A stretch of 6,282 bases of DNA from IMG/VR virus record IMGVR_UViG_3300029080_000086, positions 1 to 6,282 of that record. One strand, given 5' to 3'. Each line of letters starts with the position of its first letter. Within the stretch, counting starts at the first letter, position 1. The notes beneath the pieces were generated by a model. The model did no database searches. It saw only the letters and a list, made by a program, of their open reading frames with translations, and was not told where the DNA came from. A program made the position numbers and the translations under genes. The DNA is from a virus. Taxonomy: Duplodnaviria; Heunggongvirae; Uroviricota; Caudoviricetes. Below, piece by piece: positions 1 through 6,282 of the stretch.

Positions 1-768
<768 letters not shown>

Positions 769-835
769 GCGTAGTGGATCAGTAATTCAGGACACCTCGA
801 AATCCTGTTAATGTTAAAACAGTGAAAATGAGGTG

Positions 836-1169
836 ATGCATACTCAAAACTCGTCGGACTAAACGTACCTTTTCCCCGGAGTTCAAGCTTGAAGCTATCG
901 AACAGGTGGTTAAATACCAGCGTGATTTCAGAGAAGTCGCGCTGGCACTCGAGCTCAACCCTGACCATTTGAGTAAATGGATACGGTTGTATAAGCAGGA
1001 ACTTCAGGGTATTGAGCCCGCTGGTAATGCTATTACCCCTGAACAACGCGAAATTCAGCAGCTTAAAGCGCAGATAAAGCGCCTTGAGATGGAAAAAGAA
1101 ATACTCAAGCAGGCTGCCGTGCTGATGAGCGAAATCCCCGGAAAGCTGTCGCGCTACTCACATGGCTGA
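836..1169 (+). pseudogene. IS3-family transposase OrfA (IS911-like organisation), frameshifted near the N-terminus
   Basis: Main frame from 837 gives ...TRRTKRTFSPEFKLEAIEQVVKYQRDFREVALALELNPDHLSKWIRLYKQELQ...ITPEQREIQQLKAQIKRLEMEKEILKQAAVLMSE..., an HTH plus leucine-zipper OrfA. The only upstream ATG (836-838, preceded by GAGG) is in a different frame and hits TAA at 860-862, so a 1-nt indel near 845-860 is likely. The computed ORF needs a GTG start at 906. Confidence 0.7.
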
Positions 1170-1312
1170 AAGCAAAGTGGCCAGTGCGGGTTCTTTGTCA
1201 TTTATTCGGTATTCACCGTAGCGTTTATTACGCGCAGGTGAAGGGTGAAGCGTCCTGTTAATGTGCAAAGAATTGAATTACGAAGTCGGGTGAGGGCTTT
1301 CCATGCTCTCAT
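1170..1312 (+). pseudogene. IS3-family transposase OrfB, N-terminal stub (truncated)
   Basis: Immediately after OrfA the translation ...WPVRVLCHLFGIHRSVYYAQVKG... resembles the start of IS3-family OrfB (L-C-x-x-x-G-x-x-RS-x-YY), then stops. The expected 280-aa catalytic domain is absent. The 3' boundary is approximate. Confidence 0.4.
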
Positions 1313-1370
1313 GTCAACGCCACGATGTTTGACCGTTATTTGCCATTTTCATGCCCGCTAAATACTTTCG

Positions 1371-2223
<853 letters not shown>

Positions 2224-2224
<1 letters not shown>

Positions 2225-3621
2225 TGCTGAATCAGGAAACCGCAAAGGCAGCACGAACCGATTCAGGTTATATCCTTCGCGCACCGAGACGAATGCGGGT
2301 TGCTGATGCCGTTGCTCAGTATATGCGGGTGCCCATGGGGGCAGGGAACTCAGTCCCGTGGGATCCGCTGGTGGCACCGTATGTTATTGAGCCGATGAAC
2401 TGCCTGGCCTCGCGTGAATACGACGCAGTGATATTTGTTGGCCCGGCACGAACCGGCAAGACTATCGGCCTGATTGACGGCTGGGTGATTTACAACGTGA
2501 TTTGCGATCCTGCTGATATGCTGATCATTCAGATGACGGAGGAAAAAGCCCGCGAACACTCCAAAAAACGACTCGCCAGAACGTTTCGCGTCAGCCCGGA
2601 AGTGGTCAGTCGCCTGAGTCCGAACAAAAATGACAACAACGTTTATGACAGAACATTCCTTGCTGGTAACTACCTGAAAATCGGCTGGCCGTCAGTCAAT
2701 ATCATGTCCTCATCAGATTATAAATGCGTCGCGCTGACGGATTATGACCGTTTTCCGGAAGATATTGATGGCGAGGGGGATGCTTTCTCTCTTGCCTCAA
2801 AACGTACCACCACATTTATGTCCAGCGGTATGACGCTGGTGGAGAGTTCCCCCGGCAGGGATGTGAAGGATGTGAAATGGCGACGGACTTCACCGCATGA
2901 GGCTCCACCAACCACGGGGATCCTGTCGCTCTATAACCGTGGTGATCGCCGTCGCTGGTACTGGCCCTGTCCACACTGTGGTGAGTATTTTCAGCCCTGC
3001 GGCGATGTGGTTGCTGGTTTCCGTGATATTGCCGATCCCGTGCTGGCAAGTGAGGCGGCTTATATTCAGTGTCCTTCCTGTTCAGGACGGATTATGCCTG
3101 AACAAAAACGTGAGCTGAACGGACGTGGGGTCTGGTTGCGGGATGGTGAATCCATCAATGCGGATGGCAGTCGTTATGGTGATCCCCGACGCTCACGTAT
3201 TGCGTCATTCTGGATGGAGGGTCCGGCAGCTGCTTACCAGACACTCTCGCAACTCGTTTACAAACTGCTTACTGCAGAACAGGAATACGAGACAACCGGA
3301 AGTGAAGAAACACTCAAGACGGTTATCAATACCGACTGGGGATTACCTTATCTTCCCCGCGCCAGCATGGAGCAACGAAAAAGTGAACTGCTTGAGCAGC
3401 GGGCAGAGCCAGTTCCTTCCCGCAGTGTGCCGGATGGCGTTAATTTCCTTGTGGCGACAGTGGATGTGCAGGCGGGACGTCATCGCCGTTTTGTGGTTCA
3501 GGTAACGGGCTATGGCAGCCGTGGCGAACGCTGGATTATTGATCGTTACAACATCACGCAGTCATTGCGCGGTGACAGCGACGGGGAGAGCCAGCGAATT
3601 GATCCGGCCAGCTATGGGTGA
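2224..3621 (+). pseudogene. Phage terminase large subunit (lambda GpA family), C-terminally truncated at a deletion junction
   Basis: Walker A-like FVGPARTGKT near residue 75; cysteine pairs CPHCGE ... CPSCSG as in lambda gpA (CPHCGEE); ATVDVQ and WIIDR motifs align with lambda gpA DSQLD and WLIDR. The ORF is 465 aa against about 640 for gpA and stops at TGA 3619-3621, just after tape-measure-like sequence begins in another frame. Confidence 0.8.
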
Positions 3622-4468
3622 TCAGCAGAGGCAGCGATATCAGGTACAACTGAGTCTTCGCCAGAAATACCAGCAACAGCTGGAGCAGTTGAGGCGGGAT
3701 AGTGAGCAGAAAGGGACATATAACACGGATGACTACAGAAAGGCCGAGCAGGCGCTGACGGAGAGCCTGAACCGACAACTGAATGAGAATCGCCGTTATT
3801 GGCAACAGCTTGAAATTGCTCAGGGTAACTGGAAAAACGGTGCTATGCGGGCGTTTCAGAATTTCACGGCAGATGCGGATAATGCGGCAGGCACTGCTGA
3901 GCAGATGCTTACAGCGGCATTTAACAGTGCAGGTAATGCACTGGCAACGTTCTGTACTACCGGAAAACTGAACTTCAAATCTTTTACCGCCTCGCTCCTT
4001 TCTGATCTGGCAAAAATCATGGCTCAGATGTCCATGATGCAGGCAGTTAAGGGGATTGGTTCGGCGTTTGGCTGGGGGAGTGCAGCAACTGCCAGTGTGA
4101 CGCCCAATGCTGATGGTGGTGTTTATCAGTCTGCTGATTTGAGTCGCTACAGTGGCACGGTGGTTAACCGTCCGACGTTTTTTGCTTTTGCAAAAGGTGC
4201 AGGTGTGATGGGGGAAGCTGGGCCTGAAGCCATTCTGCCTCTGCGTCGTGGTGCTGACGGTAAGCTGGGGGTTGTGGCGGATATTGGTGGTTCAGGTATG
4301 GCGATGTTTGCCCCGCAGTACAACATCGAGATCAATAACGATGGCACGAACGGGCAGATAGGTCCGGCTGCCCTGAAGGTGGTTTATGACCTCGGGAAAA
4401 AAGCAGCAGCGGACTTTATGCAACAGCAGTCCCGTGATGGTGGTCTGTTCTCCGGAGGTGGACGATGA
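3617..4468 (+). pseudogene. Tail tape measure protein (gpH-like), C-terminal about 284 aa only
   Basis: Gln/Ala-rich, coiled-coil-like sequence followed by a Gly-rich C-terminus. Its stop overlaps the start of a near-lambda gpM (ATGA at 4465-4468), exactly as for H/M in lambda. The first 35 codons of the computed ORF (3512-3616) overlap the terminase in another frame and are probably not tape measure. Confidence 0.65.
4454..4460 (+). promoter_or_regulatory. Shine-Dalgarno (GGAGGTG) for gpM
   Basis: GGAGGTG lies 4 nt upstream of ATG 4465, with stop/start overlap ATGA. Confidence 0.5.
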
Positions 4469-4794
4469 AAACCTTCCGCTGGAAAGTGAAACCCGGTATG
4501 GATGTGGCTTCGGCCCCTTCTGTAAGAAAGGTGCGCTTTGGTGATGGCTGTTCCCAGCGAGCGCCTGCCGGGCTGAATGCCAACCTGAAAACGTACAGCG
4601 TGACGCTTTCTGTCCCCCGTGAGGAGGCCACGGTACTGGAGTCGTTTCTGGAAGAGCACGGGGGCTGGAAAGCCTTTCTGTGGACGCCGCCTTATGAGTG
4701 GCGGCAGATAAAGGTGACCTGCGCAAAATGGTCGTCGCGGGTCAGTATGCTGCGTGTTGAGTTCAGCGCAGAGTTTGAACAGGTGGTGAACTGA
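4465..4794 (+). CDS. M: Phage minor tail protein M (lambda gpM), 109 aa
   Basis: Translation MKTFRWKVKPGMDVAS...VTCAKWSSRVSMLRVEFSAEFEQVVN is near-identical to lambda gpM as recalled (a few substitutions). Length is exactly 109 aa and the stop overlaps the gpL start. Confidence 0.9.
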   Translation: MKTFRWKVKPGMDVASAPSVRKVRFGDGCSQRAPAGLNANLKTYSVTLSVPREEATVLESFLEEHGGWKAFLWTPPYEWRQIKVTCAKWSSRVSMLRVEFSAEFEQVVN

Positions 4795-5492
4795 TGCAGG
4801 ATATCCGGCAGGAAACACTGAATGAATGCACCCGTGCGGAGCAGTCGGTCAGCGTGGTGCTCTGGGAAATCGACCTGACAGAGGTCGGTGGAGAACGTTA
4901 TTTTTTCTGTAATGAGCAGAACGAAAAAGGTGAGCCGGTCACCTGGCAGGGGCGACAGTATCAGCCGTATCCCATTCAGGGGAGTGGTTTTGAACTGAAT
5001 GGCAAAGGCACCAGTACGCGCCCCACGCTGACGGTTTCTAACCTGTACGGTATGGTCACCGGGATGGCGGAAGATCTGCAGAGTCTGGTCGGCGGAACGG
5101 TGGTCCGGCGTAAGGTTTACGCCCGTTTTCTGGATGCGGTGAACTTCGTCAACGGAAACAGTGACGCCGATCCGGAGCAGGAGGTGATCAGCCGTTGGCG
5201 CATTGAGCAGTGCAGCGAACTGAGCGCGGTGAGTGCCTCTTTTGTACTGTCCACGCCGACGGAAACGGATGGCGCTGTTTTTCCGGGACGTATCATGCTG
5301 GCCAACACCTGCACCTGGACCTATCGCGGTGATGAGTGCGGTTATCACGGTCCGGCAGTCGCGGATGAATATGACCAGCCGACGTCCGATATCACGAAGG
5401 ATAAATGCAGCAAATGCCTGAGCGGCTGTAAGTTTCGCAATAACGTCGGCAACTTTGGCGGCTTCCTTTCCATTAACAAACTTTCGCAGTAA
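4794..5492 (+). CDS. L: Phage minor tail protein L (lambda gpL), 232 aa, with C-terminal cysteine cluster
   Basis: Translation MQDIRQETLNECTRAEQS...CTWTYRGDECGY...CSKCLSGCKFRNNVGNFGGFLSINKLSQ is near-identical to lambda gpL as recalled. The conserved Cys residues that coordinate the Fe-S cluster in gpL are present. Confidence 0.9.
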   Translation: MQDIRQETLNECTRAEQSVSVVLWEIDLTEVGGERYFFCNEQNEKGEPVTWQGRQYQPYPIQGSGFELNGKGTSTRPTLTVSNLYGMVTGMAEDLQSLVGGTVVRRKVYARFLDAVNFVNGNSDADPEQEVISRWRIEQCSELSAVSASFVLSTPTETDGAVFPGRIMLANTCTWTYRGDECGYHGPAVADEYDQPTSDITKDKCSKCLSGCKFRNNVGNFGGFLSINKLSQ

Positions 5493-5496
5493 TCCC

Positions 5497-6127
5497 ATGA
5501 CAGAGACAGAATCAGCGATTCTGGCGCACGCCCGGCGATGTGCGCCAGCGGAGTCGTGCGGCTTCGTGGTGAGAACGCCGGAGGGGGAAAGATATTTTCC
5601 CTGCGTGAATATCTCCGGTGAGCCGGAGGAGTATTTCCGGATGTCGCCGGAGGACTGGCTGCAGGCAGAAATGCAGGGTGAGATTGTGGCGCTGGTCCAC
5701 AGTCACCCCGGTGGTCTGCCCTGGCTGAGTGAGGCTGACCGGCGGCTGCAGGTGCAGAGTGATTTGCCGTGCTGGCTGGTCTGCCGGGGTGAGATTCATA
5801 AATTCCGCTGTGTGCCGCATCTCACCGGGCGGCGCTTTGAGCACGGGGTGACGGACTGTTACACGCTGTTCCGGGATGCTTACCATCTGGCGGGGATTGA
5901 GATGCCGGATTTTCATCGCGGGGATGACTGGTGGCGTCACGGTCAGAATCTCTATCTGGATAATCTGGAGGCCACAGGGCTGTATCAGGTGCCGTTGTCA
6001 GCGGCGCAGCCGGGCGATGTGCTGCTGTGCTGTTTTGGTTCATCGGTGCCGAATCATGCGGCCATTTACTGTGGTGACGGCGAGCTGCTGCACCATATTC
6101 CTGAACAACTGAGCAAACGAGAGAGGT
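5497..6127 (+). pseudogene. K: Phage tail tip assembly protein K (lambda gpK; MPN/JAMM plus NlpC/P60 domains), C-terminal tail replaced
   Basis: Translation MTETESAILAHARRCAPAESCGF...VALVHSHPGGLPWLSEAD (JAMM motif H-x-H-x7-S-x2-D) ...GVTDCYTLF...NHAAIY (NlpC/P60-like Cys/His) ...EQLSKRERY is near-identical to lambda gpK up to KRERY. After about 6126 the frame runs on through gpJ-derived sequence out of frame with no stop before the window end. Alternative starts are 5455 (longest ORF) and 5641 (ATG with GGAGGAG upstream, the start of the 199-aa lambda K annotation as I recall it). Confidence 0.75.
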
Positions 6128-6282
6128 ATGACGCCGGACAGCACCACAGACCAGCTGCAGAACAAAACGCTCTGGTCGTCATACACCGAAATCATCGATG
6201 TGAAACAGTGCTACCCGAACACGGCATTGGTCGGCGTACAGGTGGATTCGGAGCAGTTCGGCAGCCAGCAGGTGAGCCGTAA
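6128..6282 (+). pseudogene. J: Host specificity / tail tip protein J (lambda gpJ), internal segment, continues beyond the window
   Basis: Frame from 6128 gives MTPDSTTDQLQNKTLWSSYTEIIDVKQCYPNTALVGVQVDSEQFGSQQVSRN, which I recognise as an internal stretch of lambda gpJ (roughly residues 220-275). The gpJ N-terminal 220 or so residues and all of gpI are absent upstream. Confidence 0.65.

What the first reader, a model, noticed from the sequence alone, without database searches (positions are those of the whole stretch)
3560..3640. Out-of-frame fusion of large terminase to the tape measure C-terminus: head and tail-shaft genes deleted
The GpA-type terminase reading frame is homologous through about ...WIIDRYNI...IDPASY and stops at 3619-3621. 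From about 3617 a different frame encodes a tape-measure-like C-terminal region that runs into gpM with the canonical ATGA overlap. In a lambdoid phage about 10 kb (portal, protease/scaffold, capsid, head-tail connectors, tail tube, chaperones, most of the tape measure) lies between these points. The block therefore cannot produce particles. The ATPase (Walker A) part of the terminase is retained while the C-terminal nuclease/portal-binding part is lost.
Basis: partly seen in the sequence, partly recalled or inferred. Interest (0 to 1): 0.45.

Follow-up and report, generated by a model that had tools for sequence, protein, structure and literature searches.

The report
Prophage deletion scar at recurrent breakpoint
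A 9.8-kb deletion in a decaying lambda-like prophage of E. coli has joined the first two thirds of its DNA-packaging (terminase) gene to the last quarter of its tail-length (tape measure) gene. This is ordinary prophage decay, except that the break in the terminase gene lies at a spot where at least fourteen different deletions in other E. coli strains also end.

Summary
Window 2224-3621 encodes a GpA-type large terminase with a whole ATPase domain. Its nuclease domain stops at profile position 116 of 294. From 3614 a +1 frame encodes the last 284 residues of a lambda-type tape measure protein, which runs into gpM through an ATGA overlap. Against an intact relative (E. coli 20Ec-P-124, 99.8% identical up to the break), exactly 9,807 bp are missing, with a 3-nt microhomology (TAT, 3613-3615). 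The lost genes run from the terminase C-terminus through portal, protease/capsid, connectors and tail tube to the chaperones and 740 tape-measure codons.

The same junction occurs in one complete genome (E1620) and in four metagenome contigs. The element is also broken by IS debris upstream and by a gpK|gpJ deletion downstream.

There is one unexpected extra. The terminase breakpoint (…CCGGCCAGCT-A-T-C|) is shared by at least 14 junction classes with different partners (portal, tape measure ×3, gpJ, lom, tail fibre, ymfL). The tape-measure breakpoint has three left partners. The terminase site lies in an unusually stable imperfect inverted repeat. The cause of this hot spot is unresolved.

The parts
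1..1784 (.). Nest of IS fragments that replaces the left part of the prophage. It holds an IS21 IstA N-terminus (1-327 +), IS3-family transposase pieces (340-1169) and an IS21 IstB C-terminal fragment (minus-strand ORF 1371-1817, which overruns this part by 33 nt).
   Evidence: NCBIfam hits. Homology to the intact prophage starts only at 1785. Window 1-1315 is 99.8% identical to IS-rich regions of ~100-kb E. coli plasmids.
1785..2224 (+). DUF1441 (small-terminase-position) gene lacking its first 17 codons. The remaining ORF is 1811-2224.
   Evidence: PF07278 profile 19-146/147. Window 1785 corresponds to L003 15986, and the intact CDS starts at L003 15934.
2224..3621 (+). Truncated GpA-type large terminase: 464 native codons, then Gly and a stop. 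The ATPase domain is whole. The nuclease domain is cut at profile position 116/294.
   Evidence: Full-length relatives are 700 aa and identical through ...IDPASY, then continue PEDWDVLL....
3613..3615 (+). Deletion junction. The 3-nt microhomology TAT is shared by the terminase (AGCTAT|CCGG) and the tape measure gene (GGTAT|GGGTG).
   Evidence: Side-by-side alignment with the intact terminase and tape-measure sequences.
3614..3621 (+). ATGGGTGA: an internal Met codon of the tape measure gene now overlaps the terminase stop. This geometry would allow coupled re-initiation, but that is inferred, not shown. Automatic gene callers start the fragment at TTG 3599.
   Evidence: Sequence. Gene call in L007.
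3614..4468 (+). C-terminal 284 codons of a lambda-type tape measure protein (about the last 27%).
   Evidence: PF09718. Lambda gpH 8iyk_H residues 568-853. L003 27624-28442.
4465..4794 (+). gpM-like minor tail protein, full length, with an ATGA overlap to the tape measure stop.
   Evidence: PF05939 1-108/108. ORF coordinates.
4794..5492 (+). gpL-like minor tail protein, full length.
   Evidence: PF05100 1-206/206.
5497..6129 (+). gpK-like (JAB + NlpC/P60) tail tip protein, truncated at its 3' end.
   Evidence: PF14464 and PF00877. Homology to L003 ends at 30136.
6124..6282 (+). Second deletion junction (6124-6129), followed by an internal fragment of gpJ. About 1.29 kb is missing: the gpK 3' end, gpI and the gpJ 5' end.
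   Evidence: Window 6124-6282 matches L003 31423-31580. Junction alignment.

Best explanation
The region 3560-3640 is the scar of an illegitimate, microhomology-mediated deletion inside a lambda-like prophage of E. coli. The prophage has a DUF1441 + GpA terminase, a ClpP-capsid fusion head module and a lambda-type tail.

The deletion joined terminase codon 464 to tape-measure codon ~741 through a shared TAT. It removed 9.8 kb: the terminase C-terminus, a gpW-position gene, portal, protease/capsid, decoration and connector genes, tail terminator, tail tube, chaperones G/T and about three quarters of the tape measure gene. The join is out of frame, so the terminase ORF stops after one extra codon.

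The remnant is a non-functional fossil. It lacks a complete nuclease domain, all head genes and the tail shaft. It is further damaged by IS debris on the left and by a gpK|gpJ deletion on the right.

Shown: the two homologies, their exact ends, the microhomology and the recurrence of the junction in independent assemblies. Inferred: the mechanism (replication slippage or end-joining at microhomology) and whether it happened in one step or two.

In addition, both endpoints are recurrent deletion endpoints in E. coli prophages. The terminase endpoint is a strong hot spot whose cause is not established.
For: Domain truncation.

Match at 99.8% to an intact terminase up to window 3615, with tape-measure homology resuming at 3613.

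Annotated intact reference with the gene list of the gap.

The same junction in E1620 and in four metagenome contigs.

PGAP annotates the equivalent E1620 genes as 'incomplete; partial in the middle of a contig'.

Alignment to the lambda gpH C-terminus.

Hot-spot evidence:
- Thirteen rightward classes and one leftward class all break within ...CCGGCCAGCT-A-T-C.
- In the two 90%-identity protein clusters that hold 436-494-aa stubs, 7 of 9 distinct truncation classes end at codon 463/464.
- Each class is rare in complete genomes (0-2 of 5,426), which argues for many separate events.
- The site sits in a DNA fold with z = -3.3 and at the inner end of a perfect 9-nt inverted repeat.
Against: Nothing contradicts the deletion-scar reading.

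Against over-reading the hot spot:
- An unbiased 50%-identity representative sample shows terminase fusion breakpoints spread over the gene (aa 199, 210, 320, 340, 353, 358, 396-399, 425, 430, 487, 523). Only 2 of about 15 fall at the site.
- Six partial copies sampled from complete genomes end elsewhere.
- Much of my sampling was seeded from this window, so stubs of similar length were favoured.
- Some classes could be nested secondary deletions rather than independent events.
Confidence: 0.93

Rival explanations
1. Two-step origin. An ancestor already carried a portal|tape-measure deletion with the same tape-measure endpoint, as in Qin-locus prophages of strains PSS-10 and FDAARGOS_1077. A second deletion of about 1.1 kb then removed the rest of the terminase, the gpW-position gene and the portal stub.
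For: L005/L006 and ten further genomes have portal 18926 | tape measure 27624, the identical right endpoint. The left flank of that junction (CAGGCCCGTTAT) matches the terminase site (CCGGCCAGCTAT) at 9 of 12 positions. L001 shows a similar first-step deletion with a tape-measure allele 98.5% identical to the window's.
Against: It requires the second deletion to end exactly on the first junction. The tape-measure endpoint also pairs with a third partner (terminase aa 523, P0232). It therefore behaves as a recurrent endpoint in its own right, which removes the need for a shared ancestor.
Confidence: 0.25
2. The terminase endpoint is hot because an insertion sequence once sat there. Transposase- and IEE-dependent IS excision then removed the IS together with variable lengths of flanking DNA by microhomology-mediated end joining.
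For: [quoted passage not shown] IEE has MMEJ activity and is present in more than 30% of E. coli assemblies (PMC9943667). The pattern fits: one fixed end, a variable other end, 2-6 nt of microhomology and no IS left behind.
Against: No IS-occupied allele was found. None of 54 intact copies sampled from 1,863 genomes was split. Three IMG/VR pattern scans for a foreign base after TAT, TATC or TATCC found nothing, against at least 120 intact copies. The junction classes lie in at least two chromosomal loci (the Qin locus and a prfC/dinI-side locus) and on two terminase alleles, so several insertions at the same nucleotide would be needed. Rightward deletions far outnumber leftward ones (13 to 1), although my sampling favoured rightward ones.
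Confidence: 0.15
3. The terminase endpoint is hot because of local DNA structure or a site-specific break. The site lies in a stable imperfect inverted repeat (L003 17786-17876) and in a 20-nt imperfect palindrome, CCAG-CTA-TCCGGA-AGA-CTGG. Stalling or cleavage there (for example hairpin processing or an unknown nuclease) would leave an end that is rejoined downstream at 2-6 nt microhomologies.
For: The DNA fold has z = -3.3, with 1 of 200 shuffles as stable. A perfect 9-nt inverted repeat has its left arm ending at 17814, exactly where the breakpoints begin. The right partners share no motif beyond microhomology to GCTAT(C). Both a leftward and many rightward classes exist. Recognisable Chi sites lie only to the left of the site, and none in the opposite orientation occurs in the 18 kb to the right. 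That arrangement would favour long rightward degradation.
Against: A 9-bp stem with a 44-nt spacer is weak compared with palindromes known to be cleaved in vivo. The other recurrent endpoints (27624, 28443, 18717, 18371, 30136) show no significant structure. TCCGGA occurs 20 times in the late region, so a simple restriction site does not explain a single hot spot. The site has no similarity to the cos region. No intein lies at this codon in the family; the inteins sit at aa ~50-87. All of this is post hoc.
Confidence: 0.3
4. The junction is an assembly chimera or a sequencing artefact.
For: None specific. Prophage repeats often cause misassemblies.
Against: The identical junction is in five independent assemblies, including a closed chromosome. 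The overlap is only 3 nt, far below any assembler k-mer.
Confidence: 0.01

Closest known systems
Phage lambda gpA-family large terminase (Pfam GpA_ATPase PF05876 + GpA_nuclease PF20454)
   Same: A complete N-terminal ATPase domain with a Walker A motif. The start of the endonuclease domain is present. The gene follows a small-terminase-position gene with a start/stop overlap.
   Different: Only 464 of 700 codons remain. The nuclease domain stops at profile position 116 of 294, and the C-terminal portal-docking region is absent. It is a pseudogene and not a family variant.
Phage lambda tape measure protein gpH (PDB 8iyk chain H; Pfam Tape_meas_lam_C)
   Same: It aligns to gpH residues 568-853, through the true C-terminus. 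It is followed by gpM, gpL and gpK in lambda order with the ATGA overlap.
   Different: The N-terminal ~740 codons that set tail length and bind the chaperones G/GT are missing. It has no promoter, no ribosome binding site and no in-frame upstream partner of its own.
Cryptic lambdoid prophages of E. coli (the Qin locus and relatives) that decay by internal deletions
   Same: The same gene repertoire and the same kind of pseudogene pairs ('terminase missing C-terminus' next to 'tape measure missing N-terminus'), as annotated by PGAP in strains PEC41, E1620, CAVP819 and EC27.
   Different: The window's combination of alleles and its IS nest is not present in any of 5,426 complete E. coli genomes.
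IS-excision-enhancer (IEE)-associated deletions in EHEC (Kusumoto 2011, as cited in PMC9943667)
   Same: One fixed endpoint, a variable second endpoint up to tens of kb away, short microhomology and no element left behind.
   Different: No IS has been found at the fixed endpoint here. The events occur in several loci and on several alleles.

Membership tests
GpA-type large terminase | N-terminal ATPase domain with Walker A | tested here: met
   PF05876 E = 3.6e-72, profile 2-247/247. GPARTGKT at residues 73-80.
GpA-type large terminase | Complete C-terminal endonuclease domain | tested here: not met
   PF20454 profile 1-116 of 294 only. The 700-aa relatives continue for 236 more residues.
GpA-type large terminase | Packaging or cos-cleavage activity | not testable with these tools
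   Absence is expected from the truncation. No portal, capsid or cos region is present in the window.
Lambda-type tape measure protein | Tape_meas_lam_C domain and C-terminus adjoining gpM | tested here: met
   PF09718 1-75/76. 8iyk_H residues 568-853. ATGA overlap at 4465-4468.
Lambda-type tape measure protein | Long N-terminal helical length-determining region preceded by the G/T chaperone genes | tested here: not met
   Homology starts at L003 27624, which is codon ~741 of 1,018. The G/T genes lie in the deleted block.
Functional (inducible, particle-forming) lambdoid prophage | Complete head, tail and packaging modules | tested here: not met
   Relative to L003, the window lacks portal, protease/capsid, connectors, tail tube, chaperones, gpI, the gpJ 5' end and the small-terminase 5' end.
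IS/IEE-mediated adjacent deletion | An IS present, or demonstrably formerly present, at the fixed endpoint | tested here: not met
   No split intact copy in the sample. No foreign sequence after TAT/TATC/TATCC in IMG/VR. The search was not exhaustive.
Intein/homing-endonuclease target site | Relatives carrying an insertion at the same codon | tested here: not met
   Among the best 150 representatives, the two-stretch proteins of more than 1,000 aa carry their insertion at query aa ~50-87, not at 464.

The most novel reading that the evidence does not exclude
The terminase breakpoint (L003 17810-17817, window 3609-3616) is a sequence- or structure-determined fragile site. It repeatedly and independently inactivates this widespread family of E. 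coli lambdoid prophages through one-sided, microhomology-joined deletions. The cause could be processing of the unusually stable inverted repeat, or an unrecognised site-specific nuclease or transposase activity. The tape-measure site at 27624 would be a second such site. If so, the window's junction is a join between two preferred break points and may have arisen more than once.
Probability: 0.3. Interest if true: 0.6.

Novelty: already known. Interest (0 to 1): 0.3.

Why it matters
As a single locus it matters little. It is a well-defined example of how a lambdoid prophage is gutted, with exact endpoints and an intact comparator.

The wider pattern could matter more. Prophage decay is usually modelled as random deletion filtered by selection. 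Here one nucleotide-scale position in an essential packaging gene collects at least 14 different deletion junctions, across two loci and two terminase alleles. Several other endpoints also recur.

If this reflects a specific break or stalling mechanism, it would be a concrete and testable route by which E. coli disarms resident prophages. It would also be a caveat for inferring common ancestry from shared deletion endpoints.

Tried and rejected
- The exact junction 28-mer was not found in GTDB species representatives. A shorter 15-mer scan returned only chance matches in unrelated taxa and wasted the second scan.
- The JGI metagenome scan for 'site + non-C base' gave one true hit (the same junction) and one chance hit.
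- An IS at the site was looked for and not found.
- The restriction-site idea (T^CCGGA) was rejected, because TCCGGA occurs 20 times and CCGG 170 times in the 18-kb late region.
- A Chi-protected end was rejected. The nearest Chi is 780 nt to the left, and no Chi-like 8-mer precedes the site.
- A pseudo-cos site was rejected. The alignment score to the cos region (10) is within the shuffle range (8.5 ± 1.2, maximum 12).
- An intein or homing site at codon 464 was rejected.
- Hairpins at the other recurrent endpoints are not significant.
- Contigs that end exactly at the site (P0220, L278-L281) looked at first like evidence for a repeat or IS. They are more simply explained by the last allele-distinguishing SNP lying 41 nt upstream, so I did not use them.
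- Literature searches found no description of this hot spot.
- I noted a resemblance of the left flank to the 3' end of REP elements (10 of 13 positions, compared from memory). It was not tested and I place no weight on it.
- Whether the window and E1620 share the junction by descent cannot be decided. A core of about 520 nt around it is 93-100% identical, but that core is conserved in all alleles.
Full report
**What is in the window**

The window is the right-hand remnant of a lambda-like prophage, preceded by a nest of insertion-sequence fragments.

- Positions 1-1784 hold an IS21 IstA N-terminus, IS3-family transposase pieces and an IS21 IstB C-terminal fragment on the minus strand (its ORF, 1371-1817, overruns into the next part). 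The first 1,315 nt are 99.8% identical to IS-rich stretches of ~100-kb E. coli plasmids.
- From 1785 the sequence is prophage. It starts with a DUF1441 gene in the small-terminase position that has lost its first 17 codons.
- Next comes a GpA-type large terminase ORF (2224-3621), then a tape-measure C-terminal fragment (3614-4468).
- These are followed by gpM (4465-4794), gpL (4794-5492), a 3'-truncated gpK (5497-6129) and an internal piece of gpJ (6130-6282).

**Checking the observation**

The terminase ORF ends ...IDPASYG with its TGA at 3619-3621. Pfam finds the whole ATPase domain (profile 2-247/247, E = 3.6e-72). Of the endonuclease domain it finds only positions 1-116 of 294. Relatives that are identical through ...IDPASY are 700 aa long and continue PEDWDVLLTDVF....

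The translation from 3617 carries Tape_meas_lam_C (1-75/76, E = 1.4e-24). It aligns to lambda gpH in the solved tail-tip structure 8iyk over residues 568-853 of 853. It is therefore tape-measure C-terminus through to the natural stop, which overlaps the gpM start as ATGA. The two frames differ by +1.

**Defining the deletion**

The best intact comparator is a prophage of E. coli 20Ec-P-124 (locus L003).

- Window 1785-3615 equals L003 15986-17816 at 99.8% identity.
- Window 3613-4449 equals L003 27624-28442 at 87%. Identity is 98.5% to the tape-measure allele of strain A21005-2 (L001).
- The three overlapping bases, TAT, are present in both parents: terminase AGCTAT|CCGG and tape measure GGTAT|GGGTG.

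The gap is 9,807 bp. It contains the terminase 3' third, a small gpW-position gene, portal, the ClpP-protease/major-capsid fusion, DUF2190, a connector gene, tail terminator-like and gpU-like genes, the tail tube, the chaperones G and T, and the first ~740 tape-measure codons.

The junction is not an artefact. It is identical in three ENA gut-metagenome contigs, in a further metagenome contig and in the closed chromosome of E. coli E1620. In E1620, PGAP annotates the two halves as incomplete pseudogenes.

**How it most likely arose and what it does**

The 3-nt microhomology, the absence of filler and the absence of any mobile element at the join point to illegitimate recombination, either replication slippage or microhomology-mediated end joining. 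That mechanism is an inference.

The product is non-functional for particle production. This is over-determined by the IS truncation of the upstream gene and by a second deletion at 6124-6129. That second deletion joins gpK (L003 30136) to the interior of gpJ (L003 31423).

The junction happens to place an internal tape-measure Met codon across the terminase stop (ATGGGTGA, 3614-3621). This geometry could permit coupled re-initiation. I have no evidence of expression. The allele is rare: its 465-aa product is on 4 contigs in the protein collection, and the junction is in 1 of 5,426 complete genomes. I therefore treat it as a fossil.

A two-step history cannot be excluded. Qin-locus prophages in PSS-10, FDAARGOS_1077 and ten other genomes carry portal 18926 | tape measure 27624, the same right endpoint. 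Their left flank matches the terminase site at 9 of 12 positions.

**The unexpected part: recurrent endpoints**

While looking for the intact ancestor I found that other E. coli prophages break the terminase gene at the same place but join it to different partners. After ...GATCCGGCCAGCT the following continuations occur.

| Continuation | Partner | Source |
|---|---|---|
| AT\|GGGTGATC | tape measure 27624 | window, E1620 |
| \|GTGGACGC | tape measure 26411, with a 10/12 imperfect repeat | PEC41 |
| A\|AGTGGAGC | tape measure end, 28442 | CAVP819, EC27 |
| AC\|CTGATCC | portal 19840, in frame | P0002 |
| Y\|SAQRQELV... (protein level only) | portal, 13 codons further upstream | P0234 |
| AC\|GTGCTGGTGG | portal 3' part | P0128 |
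| ATC\|TTCAGACC | lom, in frame | P0004 |
| ATC\|AGCCCGTC | a tail assembly gene | P0125 |
| ATC\|TGCGCGAG | near the prophage end, next to a nitroreductase and dinI | P0127 |
| AT\|TGCATCCG | tail fibre | P0001 |
| ACC\|GGAGTCGG | tail fibre | IMG/VR locus |
| ACC\|GTCAGGG | gpJ | IMG/VR locus |
| ACC\|TTGGCACGG | gpJ | IMG/VR locus |

One leftward deletion joins ymfL (GGGGTA|) to TCCGGAAG at the same site. That makes 13 rightward classes and 1 leftward class. Where the partner could be read, microhomologies are 2-6 nt.

Several results argue for many separate events:
- Each class is rare in complete genomes: 1, 2, 2 and 0 genomes for the four I counted.
- The classes sit in at least two chromosomal loci.
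- They sit on two terminase alleles that are only ~78% identical upstream of L003 17540 and nearly identical from there on.

**How strong is the hot spot?**

In the two 90%-identity clusters that collect stubs of 436-494 aa, 7 of 9 distinct truncation classes end at codon 463/464. Among the loci that BLAST ranked highest for bringing terminase and tail together, 3 of 5 distinct junctions fall within 3 nt of each other.

The hot spot is nevertheless not exclusive. An unbiased search of 50%-identity representatives shows fusion breakpoints at aa 199, 210, 320, 340, 353, 358, 396-399, 425, 430, 487 and 523, with 2 of about 15 at the site. Six partial copies sampled from complete genomes end elsewhere. 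Much of my sampling was seeded from this window.

I judge the enrichment real. Its size is uncertain.

Other endpoints recur too:
- Tape measure 27624 has three left partners: terminase 17816, portal 18926 and terminase aa 523.
- Tape measure end 28442 has two.
- L003 18716-18719 serves once as a left end and once as a right end.
- L003 18370/18371 is used twice.

The window's junction is therefore a join between the two most reused endpoints.

**Why is the terminase site hot?**

This is unresolved. The site lies in CCAG-CTA-TCCGGA-AGA-CTGG, a 20-nt imperfect palindrome. It also lies at the inner end of a perfect 9-nt inverted repeat, CGGCCAGCT...AGCTGGCCG, separated by 44 nt. The 120-nt region folds as single-stranded DNA with z = -3.3, and only 1 of 200 shuffles is as stable. 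The other recurrent endpoints show no such structure.

I rejected several explanations:
- A simple restriction site, because TCCGGA occurs 20 times nearby.
- Chi protection.
- A pseudo-cos site.
- An intein or homing site at this codon; inteins in the family sit at aa ~50-87.

IS excision promoted by IEE is known to give exactly this pattern of fixed-end, microhomology-joined deletions up to more than 40 kb (PMC9943667). However, I found no IS-occupied allele, and several loci and alleles are involved.

A structure-provoked break or stall is my leading guess, at about 0.3. The IS route is at about 0.15. The remainder is 'unknown, or weaker than it looks'.

**Comparison with what is known, and verdict**

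The finding itself is a textbook prophage-decay scar. The kind is well known, and the equivalent junction is already annotated as pseudogenes in RefSeq.

Interest for the locus alone would be about 0.15. I raise it to 0.3 because of the recurrent-breakpoint pattern. I could document that pattern but not explain it, and I did not find it described in the searchable literature.

Noticed in passing
window 3609-3616 (= L003 17810-17817): The terminase breakpoint is shared by at least 14 different deletion junction classes in other E. coli prophages. Partners are portal ×3, tape measure ×3, gpJ ×2, a tail assembly gene, lom, tail fibre ×2, the prophage end and, leftward, ymfL. The site lies in a DNA fold with z = -3.3 and at the inner end of a perfect 9-nt inverted repeat.
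   Followed up: partly
window 3613-3616 (= L003 27624-27627): The tape-measure breakpoint is also reused. It pairs with portal 18926 in Qin-locus prophages of at least 12 genomes, and with terminase aa 523 in protein P0232 (…RDGLG|MGDQQRQRYQ, 6-nt microhomology TTGGTA).
   Followed up: partly
window 6124-6129: A second deletion joins gpK (…GAGAGGTAT|) to the interior of gpJ, removing about 1.29 kb (the gpK 3' end, gpI and the gpJ 5' end). Two other strains break gpK within 25 nt of this point (L013 at L003 30143, L002 at 30160).
   Followed up: partly
window 1-1784: A nest of IS fragments (IS21 istA 5' end, IS3-family pieces, IS21 istB 3' end on the minus strand) abuts the prophage at 1785 and removes the first 17 codons of the DUF1441 gene. 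Positions 1-1315 are 99.8% identical to IS-rich regions of ~100-kb E. coli plasmids (for example AP029047, AP045050). No complete E. coli genome has the whole arrangement.
   Followed up: partly
L003 16039, 16568, 17036: All three Chi sites (GCTGGTGG) of the 18-kb late region lie in the first 620 nt of the terminase gene, on the coding strand. There is none in the opposite orientation anywhere in the late region. RecBCD entering from a break would therefore be stopped leftward but not rightward.
   Followed up: no
L003 16425-17540 versus L006/L002/L004: Two terminase alleles differ by 20-50% per 60-nt window up to about L003 17540 and are 95-100% identical from there through the portal start. 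This is a sharp mosaic boundary inside the terminase gene, 270 nt upstream of the hot spot.
   Followed up: partly
proteins P0261, P0268, P0289, P0305 and others: Many distant GpA terminases of 1,030-1,100 aa match in two stretches, with an insertion of ~340-380 aa after query residue ~50-87, near the Walker A motif. These are presumably inteins.
   Followed up: no
L257 (Logan ERR1623126 contig): One prophage carries two scars in series: terminase hot spot | portal 19840 (in frame), and protease gene (…GGGCGTTA|) | tape measure end 28442. The second uses the same right endpoint as the CAVP819/EC27 junction.
   Followed up: no
deletion junctions not involving the terminase site (L005, L006, L257, window 6124-6129): Four of about eight such junctions have TA or AT at the crossover (portal|tape measure TA, terminase 17946|18717 TA, protease|tape measure end GTTA, gpK|gpJ AT). 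This may be more than chance, but the sample is small and partly biased.
   Followed up: no
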